The notes under the pieces are model-generated. The model saw only the letters and a list, made by a program, of their open reading frames with translations, had not been told where the DNA came from and searched no databases. Positions 7,579-35,740 of a stretch of DNA of 39,470 bases are shown here, piece after piece. Source of the DNA: Myxococcales bacterium (GTDB taxonomy: Bacteria; Myxococcota_A; Polyangia; Polyangiales; JADJMO01); contig JAJXTK010000001.1 of NCBI GenBank assembly GCA_021783935.1, forward strand, positions 1 to 39,470, written 5' to 3'. The stretch's first letter is position 1, and each line of letters opens with the position of its first letter. The position numbers and the translations under genes were made by a program.

Positions 7579-7650
7579 GCGGGAGTAACTCAGTGGTAGA
7601 GTGCCACCTTGCCAAGGTGGACGTCGCGGGTTCAAGTCCCGTCTCCCGCT
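7579..7650 (+). tRNA. tRNA-Gly (anticodon GCC), no encoded CCA
   Basis: Hand-folded cloverleaf. Acceptor GCGGGAG/CTCCCGC. D arm ACTC-AGTGGTA-GAGT. Anticodon arm CCACC-TTGCCAA-GGTGG. Variable loop ACGTC. T arm GCGGG-TTCAAGT-CCCGT. Discriminator T. Confidence 0.95.
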
Positions 7651-7900: not shown

Positions 7901-8028
7901 GCTAGCAGGCCGTTGAGAAACGGCCTGCGGAAACTGTGACCGTCAGCAGGCTGTGGTCGATCGCGCGTGGAGATCGCGGCATGACCCGGGAGAGGATCGG
8001 CCGGTCTCGGAGAAACTCCACAGCCTGC
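7901..8028 (+). repeat. copy 1 of a 127/128-nt structured dispersed repeat (MITE-like or small-RNA-like)
   Basis: Matches 29581-29707 in the same orientation, with one 1-nt indel and one substitution (GCGCGTGGAGATCGCGG versus GCGCG-GGAGCTCGCGG). Contains a 10-bp hairpin with a GAGA tetraloop (GCAGGCCGTT-GAGA-AACGGCCTGC) and long-range complementarity GCAGGCTGTGG/CCACAGCCTGC. Confidence 0.85.
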
Positions 8029-8068
8029 CAGGCGGCCTGACCATCGCCGTCTACGAGGGCCAACGCAC

Positions 8069-8138: not shown

Positions 8139-8513
8139 TCAGTAGCGCTCGCGACGACCGCCACCCGAGCGGCCACCACCCGAGCGACCGCCGCCACCAC
8201 CACCGCCGCCGAAGCCGCCGCCACCACCACCGCCGCCGAAGCCGCCGCCGCCGCCGCGAGGCGCGCGCTCCTCGGCCTCGTTGACGCGAAGCGGGCGGCC
8301 GTCGAGCAGCGCGCCGTTCATCTCCGAGATGGCCGCGCGGGCCTGCTCGGCGGTCGCGAGCGTGACGAAGCCGAAGCCGCGCGACTGACCCGAATCGCGA
8401 TCGGTGACGACGTGGACGTCGGTCACCTCGCGCCCGTTGGTCGCGAAGGCGGCGAGGAGCGAGTCCTTGGTGGTGTTGAACGAGAGGTTACCGACGTAGA
8501 GGCGAGTGCTCAT
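8139..8513 (-). CDS. RRM-type RNA-binding protein with Gly/Arg-rich C-terminal tail
   Basis: MSTRLYVGNLSFNTT (RNP2) and SRGFGFVTL (RNP1), then GGGGGFGGGGGGGGFGGGGGGGGRSGGGRSGGGRRERY. ATG 8513. Confidence 0.9.
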   Translation of the reverse strand: MSTRLYVGNLSFNTTKDSLLAAFATNGREVTDVHVVTDRDSGQSRGFGFVTLATAEQARAAISEMNGALLDGRPLRVNEAEERAPRGGGGGFGGGGGGGGFGGGGGGGGRSGGGRSGGGRRERY

Positions 8514-8792
8514 GATGTTCTCTTCTTCGCGGCTCGAGGGCGGACGTAACTCGTTCGCGGGTGACCGGCCGTCCAAGTGAGCCGCTACTTGGACAGGGCG
8601 CCGAGGCGAGATCGCCGCGGCCCCACTCGCGTCGTCGAGAAACCGAACCCAGTCCGCGATCCCAGAGAAAAGAGAGCGCGCCAGATGCCGAGTACCAGAC
8701 TTCGTTCGTGAGCGATCGTACGCTAGCGCATCGAGCGCCAGGCGCCACCGAGATCGTCTCGGCGGCGTACGAATTCTCCGACGCGAGCGCGG

Positions 8793-28167: not shown

Positions 28168-28599
28168 TCAGTCGAGCGCGACGTCGACGTCGACCGAGAT
28201 GCCGGCCCGGACCGACTGCGTCACGATGCAGAACTCCTCGAAGCTCGGGATGCAGGCCTGCACGGCCGCGCCGTCGGCGCCCGGCGCGTGGACCGTGACG
28301 TGGATCTTTCCGATTCGCAGGCGCTTGTGCTCGTTGCGCACGATCTCGACCTCGACGTCCGATCGCACGCCGGTGAGCGCGGCCCCCTTCTTCTTCGCGC
28401 AGAACACGAGGCTCGCAGCGAGGCAGTTGCCGACCGCCGCCGCGAGCACGCGCGCCGCGTTCGGGGCGGCGTCGCGGCCGAGGGGCGCCGGCTCGTCGAG
28501 CGTGATCGCCGCGTGCTGCGGCTTGTCGAAGCGCACGCGGAACTCGTACTGGTCGAGCTGCTCGACGGCGATTGCGAACTTCTGCACGACCTCGCTCAT
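28168..28599 (-). CDS. OsmC/Ohr family peroxiredoxin-like protein
   Basis: ATG 28599 (MSEVVQKF...) with a GGGAGAA RBS. AAAVGNCLAASLVFC and FEEFCIVTQSV are the two OsmC-family cysteines. Confidence 0.85.
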   Translation of the reverse strand: MSEVVQKFAIAVEQLDQYEFRVRFDKPQHAAITLDEPAPLGRDAAPNAARVLAAAVGNCLAASLVFCAKKKGAALTGVRSDVEVEIVRNEHKRLRIGKIHVTVHAPGADGAAVQACIPSFEEFCIVTQSVRAGISVDVDVALD

Positions 28600-28802
28600 G
28601 GGTGGGTTCTCCCTTCGTACTCTGTGTCCGAGCCACGCACGGCCTTGCGGGGTTCGCCCGGCGCGTCGAACGAGAGTACGCGGCGTGGCCGCCATGGGCT
28701 TCGCGGCGCGGCTCGGGGCCCCGACCCGAACCCTTCGGCGATCTCGCAGGCTCCCAGCGCGCGAGGTCTCCGCCGCGAGGGAAGAGCTGCGATGTCACAC
28801 AC

Positions 28803-29585
28803 GTGGACGAGTCGAGCCGTGCCAAGGGGAAGCTGCTGCGCTCGGGTCCGTTCCGGTGGACCGGCATGCCGGAGGAGCCGTGGCTGACGACGTGGCTGCC
28901 GCCCGACTACGACGCGTCGGACCGGCGCTACCCGCTCGCGATCTTCTTCGACGGGCAGAATATGTGGGACGACGAGGGGTCGTACCGCGGCGGCTGGCAG
29001 CTGCACCGGCTGCTCGACTGGCGCGCCTGCGCCGGCAAGCGCGTGCCGATCGCCGTCGCGATCGACACAGCCGGCTGGTCGCGCAATGAGATCCTCTCGC
29101 CGTGGTCGCGCGACGGCGCCATGGCGCGCGGCGATCGCATGCTCGACTGGCTCGCCTTCTGGCTCGTCCCCTCGCTGCGCGCGCAGCTGCGCGTCGAGCC
29201 CGGCCCCGAGGCCGTGTGGATCGGCGGCTCCTCGCTCGGCGGGCTGCTCTCGCTCTATGCCTTCGCGCGCAGCCCCGACGCGTTCGGGGGCGCGATCGCC
29301 ATGTCGCCGTCGATCGGCCTGCCGGGCGGGCGGCACGGCCCCATCCACGAGCTCATGGCCAGCGCGCCGCGGCTAGGGCGTCGCATCTACATGGACGCCG
29401 GTGCGCGCGAGTGCGAGTGCACGAGCATCATGCAGCACACCGGCGAGCTCGCCGCGCTCCTCGAGCGCCGCGGCTACCGCGCGGGCGACGACCTGCTCTT
29501 CTACGCCGACCCCGACGGCGCGCACGACGAGCAGAGCTGGAAGCGCCGCTTGCCGATCGCGCTCGACTTCATGCTCGGCGGCTAG
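28803..29585 (+). CDS. alpha/beta-hydrolase 'putative esterase' family protein
   Basis: WLPPDYDASDRRYPLAIFFDGQN and the nucleophile elbow IGGSSLGGLLSLYA, with GAHDEQSW near the C-terminus. The start is uncertain (GTG 28803 or ATG 28866). The TAG stop lies inside the repeat element. Confidence 0.8.
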   Translation: MDESSRAKGKLLRSGPFRWTGMPEEPWLTTWLPPDYDASDRRYPLAIFFDGQNMWDDEGSYRGGWQLHRLLDWRACAGKRVPIAVAIDTAGWSRNEILSPWSRDGAMARGDRMLDWLAFWLVPSLRAQLRVEPGPEAVWIGGSSLGGLLSLYAFARSPDAFGGAIAMSPSIGLPGGRHGPIHELMASAPRLGRRIYMDAGARECECTSIMQHTGELAALLERRGYRAGDDLLFYADPDGAHDEQSWKRRLPIALDFMLGG

Positions 29586-29707
29586 CAGGCCGTTGAGAAA
29601 CGGCCTGCGGAAACTGTGACCGTCAGCAGGCTGTGGTCGATCGCGCGGGAGCTCGCGGCATGACCCGGGAGAGGATCGGCCGGTCTCGGAGAAACTCCAC
29701 AGCCTGC
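29581..29707 (+). repeat. copy 2 of the 127/128-nt structured repeat, with 12-nt terminal inverted repeats (11/12 match)
   Basis: Near-identical to 7901-8028. The ends are GCTAGCAGGCCG ... CAGCCTGCTAGC. The element begins 2 nt before the esterase stop codon and supplies that TAG. Confidence 0.85.
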
Positions 29708-29957
29708 TAGCGCTGCTGCCCCAGATTCGAGTCTGGTTGCCGTCCCTCGAATGCCCCCGCCCCGCCCCTGCCATCGCTGTGCGGTGGAGGGTGATGGGTC
29801 CAATCTCCGCGGCCTCGACTCCCTTGTCCCGCACCGCGGGGGAAGGGCTGAGGATGAGGGCTGCGGCAATCCATCGAGGAGCGCGCGCAGGGGCGGATCC
29901 CGCCCCCCCCGAACCCTCCCGCGGCTCGCGGGCTCTCATCGTGCCAGGAGCCCATCG

Positions 29958-30344
29958 ATGCCGACCCTGCCGATCACCGAAGCCTCCTTCGCCGAAGCCG
30001 TGAAGGCGCCCGGCGTCCTGCTGATCGACTGGTGGGCCCCGTGGTGCGCGCCTTGCCGTATGTTCGCGCCGATCTACGAAAAGGTTTCGGCGCGCCACCC
30101 CGACGTGCGCTTCGCGAAGGTCGACACCGAGTCGCAGCCGCGCCTCGCGTCGATCTTCCAGATCCGATCGATCCCGACGCTCATGGTGGTCAAAGACGGC
30201 CGCGTCGTCTTCTCCGAGGCGGGCATGATGCAGGAGCGCCCGCTCGAGGGGCTCGTGAAGTGGGCAAAGGAGCTCGACCTCTCCAAGCTCACCGCCGGCC
30301 AGCTCCCCCAACGGCCGCGCCCGCCGACGCCCCTCGATCGATAG
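29958..30344 (+). CDS. thioredoxin
   Basis: LIDWWAPWCAPCRMFAPIYEKV (WCxPC) and IRSIPTLMVVKDG. AGGAG RBS 8 nt before ATG 29958. The upstream part of track ORF 29751..30344 is not coding-like. Confidence 0.9.
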   Translation: MPTLPITEASFAEAVKAPGVLLIDWWAPWCAPCRMFAPIYEKVSARHPDVRFAKVDTESQPRLASIFQIRSIPTLMVVKDGRVVFSEAGMMQERPLEGLVKWAKELDLSKLTAGQLPQRPRPPTPLDR

Positions 30345-30418
30345 CGTGATCGATGGCGTGATCGATGGCGTGATCGATGGCGTGATCGATGGCGTGATCG
30401 ATGGCGTGATCGATGGCG
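30335..30418. repeat. 12-nt tandem repeat, six perfect TGATCGATGGCG units plus one degenerate unit
   Basis: Perfect units at 30347, 30359, 30371, 30383, 30395 and 30407. The degenerate unit CGATCGATAGCG (30335-30346) contains the thioredoxin TAG stop. Each unit carries the ATCGAT palindrome and a GATC. Confidence 0.95.
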
Positions 30419-30666
30419 TCGCGGCCTCGTCCTCCCCAGCGCTCCGCGACGCGGCGCGCTCGAACCCTTCCTCGCGCGAGCGGCTCCCACTCCACGAGCG
30501 GGCGCGCTCCACGCCGTACGTCGTCGCTGGTCCCCCGGTCTTCGGCGTTTCGTGATCCTCCCCTCCGGGCGCGCCCGCTCACCTAGCTTCGTCACCGGCG
30601 ACGCTCACCGCCGCCGAGCGCCCCGACGCGCGCCGCACGCGCGCTCTCACCCTCTTCGGAGGTCTC

Positions 30667-34687: not shown

Positions 34688-35740
34688 TCACGGCGCGAGC
34701 CCCGCCGCGGTCGCGCTTGCTTCGATGTAGTCGTGCGCGACGGGCCGCCCTACGAAATCGGAGTAGTCGAGCGCGACGTCCGCCGCGGCCGGATCGTGCG
34801 GGAGCGTGGTCACCACGGTCATGTGGAGGCACCAGATCGCGCCGGCGAGGCAGCCGGAGCCGTTGGCCGAGACTTGGTAGTAGGCGCTCGTCGGCGCCCA
34901 GGTGGTGCCGCCGCTGCGCATGCTCGCGTCGTTCGGCGAGGCGGTGGAGACATCGGCGTCCCACGCGCCGACGAAGTAGGCCTTGCGCAGCCACGCGACG
35001 CTCGTCGAGGTCAGCCCGCCGAGCGCGCCGTCGAGGTCGAAGTAGACGGTCTTTGCTCGGGTGAGCCCCGAGGGGTCGAGCCCGCCCGAGAGCTCGCCGA
35101 GCAGCTCGTGCGCGACGTAGCTGCCGCTCGAATGGCCGACGACCAGCACGAAGTGGGTACTCGCCGACACGCTCGCGAGCAACGCGGCAGCGATCTTGGA
35201 ATTGCCAATCTCCTTGCCGGAGTACTGGATGTCTGCCGGCCCTTGCACGGCCCAGAGCCAGCGGACCCCCTTGTCGTGGAGCGTGGCGCGAAAGAGCGCC
35301 GTGGCCCACGCCTCTGCGCCGGAGAGCGTCGCGCCGTAGCCGGCGTAGATGATCGCCGCGTTCGAGCCGATCGGGTTCTGCGTGTCCTTGGCGGCGACGC
35401 CGTAGCCGACGCTCACGCCCGTCGACCACGGGATCGTGTCGACGTCGGGCTCGCTCGAATCGCTCCCGCTCGCGTCGGCCGCGTCGGCCGCGTCGGTCGC
35501 GTCGCCCACGGCGGTCGCGTCGCTCGTGTTGCTCGCGTCGGCGGCGTCGCTCGCGGCGGCCTCTTCGCCTGTGTCGCCTGCCTCGCCCACGCCCACCTCC
35601 GCGACGCCGAGCGGCGCGTCGGTCGCGGCGTTCGCGCCGTCGGCGGCTGCGTCGGCGGGCTCGCTCGAGCTTCCGCCTCCGCACGAGGCGACGCCGACCG
35701 AGGCTGCGGCGAGGAGCGCGGCGAGGGGGGAGAATCGCAC
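34688..35740 (-). CDS. lipoprotein, probable serine hydrolase (lipase/esterase-like)
   Basis: GTG 35740 gives RFSPLAALLAAASVGVASCGG (lipobox); the track start at 35776 is a TTG. An acidic Ala/Asp linker precedes the catalytic-looking VVGHSSGSYVAHEL (GHSxG). Confidence 0.65.
   Translation of the reverse strand: MRFSPLAALLAAASVGVASCGGGSSSEPADAAADGANAATDAPLGVAEVGVGEAGDTGEEAAASDAADASNTSDATAVGDATDAADAADASGSDSSEPDVDTIPWSTGVSVGYGVAAKDTQNPIGSNAAIIYAGYGATLSGAEAWATALFRATLHDKGVRWLWAVQGPADIQYSGKEIGNSKIAAALLASVSASTHFVLVVGHSSGSYVAHELLGELSGGLDPSGLTRAKTVYFDLDGALGGLTSTSVAWLRKAYFVGAWDADVSTASPNDASMRSGGTTWAPTSAYYQVSANGSGCLAGAIWCLHMTVVTTLPHDPAAADVALDYSDFVGRPVAHDYIEASATAAGLAP

What the first reader, a model, noticed from the sequence alone, without database searches (positions are those of the whole stretch)
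7901..8028. 127/128-nt highly structured repeat present twice in direct orientation 21.7 kb apart
Seen in sequence:
- 7901-8028 and 29581-29707 are identical except for one inserted T and one A/C change, both within the central segment GCGCG(T)GGAG(A/C)TCGCGG.
- The element folds on paper into a 10-bp hairpin capped by a GNRA tetraloop (GCAGGCCGUU-GAGA-AACGGCCUGC).
- It also forms an 11-bp long-range helix (GCAGGCUGUGG with CCACAGCCUGC).
- An internal 8-bp helix is GGUCGAUC/GAUCGGCC, and a small GGAG-AAA-CUCC hairpin is present.
- Flanks are unrelated, so this is a discrete mobile or duplicated unit, not a segmental duplication.

Inference:
- It is either a MITE-like element or a multi-copy small RNA gene. 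I cannot match it to any RNA family I know.
Basis: seen in the sequence. Interest (0 to 1): 0.6.

Follow-up and report, generated by a model that had tools for sequence, protein, structure and literature searches.

The report
IS5-type miniature transposon targeting CTAG
The 128-nt repeat is one of about 250 copies of a small gene-less transposon (MITE) that carries the end sequences of ISPst12-like IS5-family insertion sequences and inserts at the rare word CTAG, often on a gene's TAG stop codon; it is an unnamed family of an ordinary, known kind of element.

Summary
Window 7902-8031 and 29582-29710 differ by one indel and two substitutions.

It is not a two-copy duplication. The window's 6.1-Mb draft genome (a Myxococcota MAG, 72% GC) holds about 250 copies, tightly 128/129 nt long, in at least two subfamilies.

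Each copy is bounded by CTAG-like tetramers and has 16-nt terminal inverted repeats (CAGGCCGTTGAGAAAC). These match 15/16 the ends of ISPst12, an IS5-family insertion sequence, which is itself flanked by CTAG. Six full-length ISPst12-like elements in the same order, one in the window's own family, show the same ends and CTAG/CTAA direct repeats.

A third of copies abut a gene so that the flanking TAG is its stop codon, as for the esterase gene at copy 2.

Several things argue against other readings:
- Rfam has no match.
- There is no strand bias relative to neighbouring genes.
- No RAYT gene is present.
- Covariation amounts to one compensatory pair that tracks the subfamily split.

No partner transposase is in the 87%-complete draft.

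Verdict: a new member of a known kind (closest published analogue: MITEPsy1). This scan has already found IS5-type CTAG-bounded MITEs on several other genomes. Low interest.

The parts
7902..8031 (+). MITE copy 1 (subfamily A) including flanking tetramers. It is intergenic, between a tRNA gene (7579-7650) and the 3' end of a minus-strand RRM protein gene (8139-8576).
   Evidence: neighbours
7902..7905 (.). Left flanking tetramer CTAG of copy 1 (target-derived repeat)
7906..7921 (+). Left terminal inverted repeat CAGGCCGTTGAGAAAC; 15/16 identical to the ISPst12 terminus CAGGCCGTTGAAAAAC
7905..7928 (+). Left hairpin GCAGGCCGTT-GAGA-AACGGCCTGC. It is formed by the terminus (motif m1) and an inverted subterminal copy of it (m2).
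7946..7956 (+). Internal copy of the terminus core (m3, GCAGGCTGTGG); 5' arm of the long-range helix
8012..8027 (-). Right terminal inverted repeat (reads CAGGCTGTGGAGTTTC on the minus strand). It contains m4, the 3' arm of the long-range helix (8018-8028).
8028..8031 (.). Right flanking tetramer of copy 1, decayed to CCAG
29582..29710 (+). MITE copy 2 (subfamily A) including both CTAG tetramers. It lies between an esterase gene and a thioredoxin gene (29751-30344).
29583..29585 (+). TAG inside the left CTAG of copy 2. It is the stop codon of the esterase ORF 28572-29585 (GC3 = 0.97 over the last 120 codons).
29707..29710 (.). Right flanking tetramer CTAG of copy 2

Best explanation
The repeat is a non-autonomous miniature inverted-repeat transposable element (MITE). 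It belongs to the lineage of ISPst12-like insertion sequences of the IS5 family (DUF772 + DDE_Tnp_1 transposase, NCBIfam NF033581).

Shown:
- The element is 128/129 nt long and non-coding, with about 250 copies in the genome.
- Its 16-nt ends are those of the IS.
- It is bounded by CTAG-like tetramers that behave as a target duplication.

Inferred:
- A DDE transposase supplied in trans binds the two ends, excises the element, and inserts it into the rare tetranucleotide CTAG, duplicating CTA(G).
- In this 72% GC genome many tolerated CTAG sites are 'C-TAG' gene ends, and insertions inside genes are removed by selection. Copies therefore pile up exactly on stop codons, which the duplication regenerates, so the protein is unchanged.
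- The 'rich structure' arises because the terminus core occurs four times in alternating orientation (m1-m4). This gives two side-by-side hairpins in subfamily A, or an end-to-end stem in subfamily B.
- Recombination between the direct copies m2 and m4 explains the fused dimers and probably the solo CTAG-hairpin-CTAG units.
For: Copy number and uniform length:
- 251 matches, 198 near full length, and a terminus-to-terminus spacing of 128 or 129 nt in 108 cases.
- The family makes up 0.48% of the assembly. 27 matches touch contig ends, so the true number is higher.
- The age spread is wide: 20 copies have a twin of at least 99% identity, while 65 have none above 90%.

Ends:
- Subfamily B has perfect 16-nt inverted termini.
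- ISPst12 in plasmid pTmex-577K is 1331 bp and reads CTAG|CAGGCCGTTGAAAAAC...CAACGGCCTG|CTAG. RefSeq names its gene 'IS5-like element ISPst12 family transposase'.
- The pW2 copy has the same ends. Its transposase scores 259.7 bits on NF033581, where the cut-off is 140.
- Six full-length relatives in the window's order, one from its own family (G003), have ends CAGGNNGYTGARAAAC and direct repeats CTAG (5) or CTAA (1).

Target:
- Exact CTAG occurs on the left in 109/179 copies and on the right in 96/179.
- Tandem copies share one CTAG.
- Position 1 of the tetramer is concordant between the two sides (10 shared variants vs 1 discordant, Fisher p = 1e-8).
- A paralogous uninterrupted site at C236 carries a single tetramer where the occupied site has GTAG...GTAG.

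Literature:
- ISPst12 makes TTAG duplications, and insertion at CTAG is known (PMC3735179).
- MITEPsy1, an IS5-type MITE, duplicates CTAG or YTAA and was trapped transposing (PMC3189936).

Context:
- 34% of copies use a flank TAG as a gene's stop codon, against 13% of free CTAG sites.
Against: - No ISPst12-like transposase, and no other IS5-, IS630- or Harbinger-type transposase, is present in the assembled 87% of the genome or in its congener G001. Mobilisation in this organism is therefore inferred, not shown.
- Similarity to the IS is confined to the 16-nt terminus, so the element is not demonstrably a deletion derivative of a known IS.
- No orthologous empty site and no read-level insertion polymorphism could be obtained.
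- Position 4 of the flanking tetramer is never concordant (left varies in 4 of 179 copies, right in 32 of 179). The duplication may therefore be 3 nt (CTA) next to an element-borne G, not the 4 bp reported for the IS.
- The right end co-varies with the internal motif m3 and not with the left terminus. Simple recognition of two identical ends by a transposase does not predict this.
Confidence: 0.88

Rival explanations
1. A MITE of the IS630/Tc1-mariner type. That transposase inserts into the TA of CTAG and duplicates only TA, so the outer C and G would simply reflect target preference.
For: CTAG...CTAG flanks are formally compatible with a TA duplication inside a CTAG target. The outermost tetramer positions vary more than the innermost, as this model predicts.
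Against: Position 1 on the right, which would be an element base under this model, copies position 1 on the left, which would be host DNA (10 vs 1, p = 1e-8). The terminus matches IS5-family elements, not IS630. No DDE_3 transposase is in the genome.
Confidence: 0.04
2. A REP/REPIN-like element: a conserved tetranucleotide plus a palindrome, spread as single-stranded DNA hairpins by a RAYT (Y1/HUH) transposase.
For: The architecture is CTAG + 22-nt perfect hairpin. Solo and tandem CTAG-hairpin units occur in G040 and in several phyla. One compensatory change keeps the m3:m4 hairpin intact.
Against: The three Y1 proteins of the genome are IS200-type, scoring 16-23 bits on the RAYT model where the cut-off is 80. 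None has the motif within 3 kb. G040 is 99% complete and full of these units, yet it has no Y1 gene at all. The hairpin arm is exactly the terminus of DDE-type IS5 elements. Solo hairpins are explained by m2/m4 recombination, for which two fused dimers give direct evidence.
Confidence: 0.04
3. A family of structured small-RNA genes, or a selected cis-acting RNA element in 3' untranslated regions (for example an mRNA stabiliser), with mobility secondary.
For: The fold is very stable (about -60 kcal/mol, z -3.2 to -4.4). A third of copies sit directly behind stop codons and so are probably transcribed as part of 3' ends. The helices are well conserved.
Against: Rfam gives no match. Copy 1 has no promoter-like site and no terminator-like site within the element. 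Orientation relative to the abutting gene is random (28 vs 33). Stem mismatches would be G-U wobbles on the plus strand as often as on the minus strand (pairs 17:24, 18:23, 56:125). RNAalifold finds no consensus structure over all copies. The only clear covariation tracks the subfamily split.
Confidence: 0.04

Closest known systems
ISPst12 (IS5 family; NCBIfam NF033581 transpos_IS5_4) and ISPst12-like elements of Myxococcota MAGs
   Same: The terminus is CAGGCCGTTGA(A/G)AAAC (15/16 identical). Insertion is into CTAG/YTAR with flanking direct repeats.
   Different: The IS is 1.25-1.35 kb and encodes a transposase of about 365 aa. The window element is 128 nt and non-coding, shares nothing with the IS beyond the 16-nt ends, and has no partner IS in its own draft genome.
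MITEPsy1 of Pseudomonas syringae pv. phaseolicola (PMC3189936)
   Same: It is about 100 nt and non-coding, is attributed to an IS5-family element, has 18-nt inverted termini, and inserts at CTAG or YTAA with duplication.
   Different: The terminus sequence is unrelated (GGAAGGTCTGAAAAAGCC). It has only a handful of copies, not about 250. Its mobility was shown experimentally, whereas here it is inferred.
170-nt element on P. aeruginosa RW109 plasmid 1 (LT969519.1, locus L116 2506-2675)
   Same: The termini are the same (CAGGCCGTTGAAAAAC / CAGGCTGTTGAAAAAC). It is flanked by CTAG and CTAA and is non-coding.
   Different: The interior is unrelated and lacks the subterminal return arm. It is not annotated or named.
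REP/BIME/REPIN elements with RAYT transposases
   Same: A short conserved tetranucleotide sits next to a GC-rich palindrome. The elements are high-copy and intergenic, with tandem and inverted arrangements.
   Different: REPs carry GTAG, not CTAG, and depend on a Y1 RAYT gene. None is present here or in G040. The ends here are those of a DDE-type IS.
Correia elements (Neisseria) and RUP (S. pneumoniae)
   Same: These are 100-155-nt MITEs present in hundreds of copies. They fold into stable hairpins and often sit at gene ends.
   Different: They duplicate TA. RUP is attributed to an IS630-type element and the Correia transposase is unknown (from my own knowledge, not tested here). Their termini are unrelated.

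Membership tests
MITE (non-autonomous DNA transposon) | Small (under about 300 bp), no coding capacity, uniform length | tested here: met
   Terminus-to-terminus spacing is 128 or 129 nt in 108 cases. The unit is too short to encode a transposase.
MITE (non-autonomous DNA transposon) | Terminal inverted repeats | tested here: met
   16/16 in the subfamily B consensus and 13/16 in subfamily A.
MITE (non-autonomous DNA transposon) | Multiple dispersed copies with unrelated flanks | tested here: met
   251 matches on 189 contigs.
MITE (non-autonomous DNA transposon) | Target-site duplication, shown by comparing empty and filled sites | tested here: inconclusive
   CTAG-like tetramers lie on both sides. 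Position 1 is concordant (p = 1e-8), and two paralogous uninterrupted sites carry one tetramer. No orthologous empty site was obtained, and position 4 is not concordant, so the duplication length (3 or 4) is unresolved.
MITE (non-autonomous DNA transposon) | Observed mobility (insertion polymorphism or a trapped transposition event) | not testable with these tools
IS5 family, ISPst12-like lineage (as the MITE's source or mobiliser) | Termini match those of an autonomous element of the lineage | tested here: met
   15/16 identity to ISPst12. The consensus CAGGNNGYTGARAAAC holds in 8 full-length elements.
IS5 family, ISPst12-like lineage (as the MITE's source or mobiliser) | Same target word (CTAG/YTAR) as the autonomous element | tested here: met
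   The ISs are flanked by CTAG (7) or CTAA (1); see also PMC3735179.
IS5 family, ISPst12-like lineage (as the MITE's source or mobiliser) | Partner transposase gene present in the same genome | tested here: not met
   There is no homologue in G000 or G001, and Pfam searches for IS5-type domains were negative. The draft is 87% complete in 811 contigs, so absence is not proven. The transposase is present in 7 of the 151 genomes searched in the order, including one of the same family.
REP/REPIN with RAYT | RAYT (REP-associated Y1 transposase) gene, typically flanked by the REPs | tested here: not met
   The Y1 hits are IS200-type (NF047646 16-23 bits vs cut-off 80). No motif lies near them. G040 has none.
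Described RNA family (Rfam 15) | Match to a covariance model | tested here: not met
   No match at gathering score or at E<=10 on the element.

The most novel reading that the evidence does not exclude
The fourfold, alternately oriented terminus core (m1-m4) may not be an accident of decay. It may be selected because the element must fold, either as single-stranded DNA during transposition or as RNA in the 3' ends of the genes it lands behind. The evidence is that the right end co-varies with the internal motif m3 (C-G in 74 copies, T-A in 64) while the left terminus stays unchanged. If so, this family would be a MITE whose amplification or retention depends on a double-hairpin structure, and it could act as a portable mRNA 3'-end stabiliser or terminator module.
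Probability: 0.1. Interest if true: 0.5.

Novelty: new member of a known kind. Interest (0 to 1): 0.2.

Why it matters
The main value is for annotation and assembly.
- The family explains many contig breaks in this MAG (27 matches touch contig ends).
- It accounts for about 0.5% of the assembly and touches 16% of all CTAG words.
- It occupies roughly a quarter of the gene ends that read C-TAG.
- It shows that an IS5 lineage known from Pseudomonas plasmids (ISPst12) has seeded high-copy MITEs in uncultured Myxococcota, and that its terminus is conserved across several phyla.

It does not open a new mechanism. This scan has already met the same kind of element on several other genomes.

Tried and rejected
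- **RAYT/REP hypothesis.** I searched Y1_Tnp in G000, G001 and G040, classified the hits and scanned their flanks. Rejected.
- **IS630, Harbinger and IS427-type partners.** PF13358, PF13359, PF13340 and PF13586 all gave no hit in G000.
- **The two DDE_Tnp_1 genes of G000 (C333, C514).** They are IS4/IS701-like and have no link to the repeat.
- **A long element with the same ends on C668.** The 'left end' is a chance match inside a gene.
- **RNAalifold over 186 copies.** It gave no consensus structure. The mutual-information scan is dominated by subfamily-diagnostic columns.
- **Exact-sequence literature search.** It found only unrelated primer coincidences.
- **Orthologous empty site in the congener G001.** It is too diverged.
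- **Exact L=R test on non-CTAG tetramers.** Not significant: 3 of 40, P = 0.29.
- **The look-up of sequencing runs.** It was closed, so neither transcription nor insertion polymorphism could be examined.

Full report
**1. Observation**

The two stretches are as described. 7901-7967 is identical to 29581-29647, and 7969-8031 matches 29648-29710 at 97%.

The natural unit is slightly longer, at 7902-8031 and 29582-29710. Both copies start with CTAG. Copy 2 ends with CTAG and copy 1 with CCAG.

The GAGA-capped 10-bp hairpin and the 11-bp long-range helix are both in the predicted minimum-free-energy fold (-60.4 kcal/mol, z = -3.2). The complementary strand folds at least as well (-62.1 kcal/mol, z = -4.4), as expected for nested inverted repeats.

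**2. Copy number**

The window is contig C783 of an 811-contig, 6.1-Mb draft that is 87% complete and 71.8% GC. Records from the same order are titled Myxococcales MAGs.

- BLAST finds 251 matches on 189 contigs, 198 of them near full length.
- The spacing between termini is 128 or 129 nt in 108 cases.
- 27 matches touch a contig end, so the repeat breaks the assembly and the true number is higher.
- There are two main subfamilies, A (the window's type) and B.
- Ages are mixed. Over the core, 20 copies have a twin of at least 99% identity, while 65 have no relative above 90%.
- The same-genus genome G001 carries diverged homologues. The other seven genomes of the window's family that were searched gave no match.

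**3. Anatomy**

Every copy reads tetramer | CAGGCCGTTGAGAAAC ... | tetramer.

- The tetramer is exactly CTAG in 109/179 copies on the left and 96/179 on the right. The commonest variants are the transitions CCAG and CTGG.
- Tandem copies share a single CTAG.
- Subfamily B has perfect 16-nt inverted termini. In subfamily A the right terminus reads CAGGCTGTGGAGTTTC.
- The terminus core occurs four times in alternating orientation: m1 at the left end, m2 just inside it, m3 at about position 47, and m4 at the right end.
In subfamily B the alternative pairing, m1:m4 plus m2:m3, is preferred.

**4. What it belongs to**

Rfam gives nothing at gathering score or at E<=10.

A search of annotated plasmids with the CTAG-hairpin module found exact 19-22-nt matches to CTAGCAGGCCGTTGAAAAAC.

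- On P. putida plasmid pW2 two such ends lie 1.34 kb apart in inverted orientation, each flanked by CTAG. They enclose a transposase of at least 321 aa. It scores 259.7 bits on NCBIfam NF033581 (IS5 family; cut-off 140) and has DUF772 and DDE_Tnp_1 domains.
- On plasmid pTmex-577K the same 1331-bp element is annotated 'IS5-like element ISPst12 family transposase'.
- A paper reports that ISPst12 and ISPa16 make TTAG duplications and that CTAG insertion had been seen before (PMC3735179).
- In the window's own order, the transposase occurs in 7 of the 151 genomes searched, including one of the window's family.
- All six full-length copies there are 1.25-1.35 kb, end in CAGGNNGYTGARAAAC, and carry CTAG (5) or CTAA (1) direct repeats.
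- A 170-nt non-coding element with the same ends sits on a P. aeruginosa plasmid.

The window's repeat is therefore a MITE carrying the ends and the target word of this IS5 lineage. The closest published analogue is MITEPsy1, a 100-nt IS5-type MITE that duplicates CTAG or YTAA and was caught transposing (PMC3189936).

**5. Target duplication**

No orthologous empty site was available. Internal evidence has to stand in.

- Position 1 of the tetramer agrees between left and right whenever it departs from C (10 shared variants vs 1 discordant, Fisher p = 1e-8). A TA-only duplication does not predict this.
- A paralogous uninterrupted sequence on C236 has one tetramer (GAAG) where the occupied site has GTAG-element-GTAG. 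A second, weaker case is C684 vs C94.
- Position 4 is never concordant. The left G is almost invariant (it varies in 4 of 179 copies), while the right base varies in 32 of 179.

The duplication may therefore be CTA next to an element-borne G, not the 4 bp reported for the IS. I leave its length open.

**6. Where it lands**

CTAG is about ten-fold under-represented in this genome: 1517 observed vs about 15,700 expected from base composition. 249 of these sites touch an element.

- In 60 of 179 copies (34%) a flanking TAG is the stop codon of a coding-like ORF, 28 on the left side and 33 on the right. The figure for free CTAG sites is 13%.
- About 228 coding-like ORFs end in C-TAG, so roughly a quarter of such gene ends are occupied.
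- Copy 2 is an example. The esterase ORF 28572-29585 ends in the TAG of the left CTAG. Because the target word is repeated on both sides, the stop codon is kept and the protein should be unchanged.
- Copy 1 is intergenic, between a tRNA gene and the 3' end of an RRM protein gene.

The enrichment at stops is what CTAG targeting plus selection against intragenic insertions would produce. This is inference.

**7. Structure: selected or incidental?**

Across 186 copies the stems are mostly invariant, with scattered mismatches.

- The one clear compensatory change is pair 56:125 in the m3:m4 helix (C-G in 74 copies, T-A in 64, with 15 of each intermediate). It tracks the A/B split, so it represents few events.
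- The left terminus does not follow it (pair 15:125: CG in 91 copies, CA in 76).
- Mismatches that would be G-U wobbles occur equally on either strand (pairs 17:24, 18:23, 56:125).
- RNAalifold returns no consensus structure.
- Orientation relative to the abutting gene is random.

These results argue against a strand-specific RNA role. They leave open a modest constraint on hairpin formation.

**8. Rivals**

- **REP/RAYT.** The CTAG + palindrome module looks REP-like. It also occurs as solo or tandem 26-nt units in G040 and in Lysobacteraceae, Pseudomonadales, Thermodesulfobacteriota, Deferrisomatales and Planctomycetota MAGs. Against this, the genome's three Y1 proteins are IS200-type with no motif nearby, and G040 has no Y1 gene at all. 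Solo hairpins are what recombination between the direct repeats m2 and m4 would leave. Two fused dimers on C30 and C726, in which m4 of one copy doubles as m2 of the next, show that such exchanges happen. G000 has about eight solo units.
- **IS630-type.** Excluded by the terminus match, by the concordance at position 1, and by the lack of a DDE_3 gene.

**9. Weak points**

- No partner transposase is in the draft or in its congener. With 87% completeness and 811 contigs this does not show absence, but mobilisation in this organism remains inferred.
- Similarity to the IS is limited to 16 nt.

**10. Verdict**

This is an unnamed, high-copy MITE family of the ISPst12-like IS5 lineage, a new member of a known kind.

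Earlier notes of this scan describe IS5-type CTAG-bounded MITEs on stop codons in several other genomes. I saw them after reaching the same reading, and they are not independent evidence. A first-stage note on this window had already pointed out the inverted termini of copy 2 and the esterase stop codon, and I confirmed both.

Noticed in passing
L048, L103 (Thermodesulfobacteriota MAG) and L071 (Deferrisomatales MAG), around the pattern matches: Elements of about 190 nt start with the same CTAG + CAGGCCGTTGAA(A/G)AACGGCCTG hairpin. Their interiors look closely similar to one another by eye (gcgccccacgga.ggggcgccgaatcgcggagcttgaaaag...) although the records carry different order- and phylum-level names. 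This suggests horizontal spread of one MITE, or a conserved core.
   Followed up: no
G040 loci L032, L034, L036: There are tandem runs of 26-nt units (CTAG + 22-nt perfect hairpin). A second CTAG-bounded element of about 150 nt ends in CAGGGTGTT-TTTC-AACACCCTG, a doubly compensated variant of the hairpin. Many G040 contigs end about 120 nt from such a unit.
   Followed up: partly
whole genome G000: CTAG is about ten-fold under-represented. The commonest decayed forms of the flanking tetramers are CCAG and CTGG, that is T>C and A>G transitions. This fits GC-biased mutation or a very-short-patch-like repair.
   Followed up: no
G000 C30:7930-8156 and C726:555-781: These are 226-227-nt fused dimers in which the right terminus of one copy doubles as the subterminal motif (m2) of the next, indicating recombination between the internal direct repeats. 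C711:4231-4457 is a head-to-head pair.
   Followed up: partly
window 30324-30431: A 12-nt tandem repeat GATCGATGGCGT, six near-perfect units plus degenerate ones, lies just downstream of the thioredoxin gene (family D2). A first-stage note also lists it.
   Followed up: no
window 35468-35604: A stretch with 9-nt periodicity (GTCGGCCGC-like units, 9 overlapping copies, family D1). It is probably a repetitive coding segment.
   Followed up: no
window 8139-8576 (-) and 7579-7650 (+): An RRM-domain protein with a long Gly-rich tail (Pfam RRM_1) and a tRNA gene (Rfam, 69 bits) flank copy 1.
   Followed up: partly
G000 C798 (locus L039 1054-1875): One open frame joins an IS701-like N-terminal fragment to an IS200-type Y1 domain. 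It is probably one insertion sequence inserted into another.
   Followed up: no
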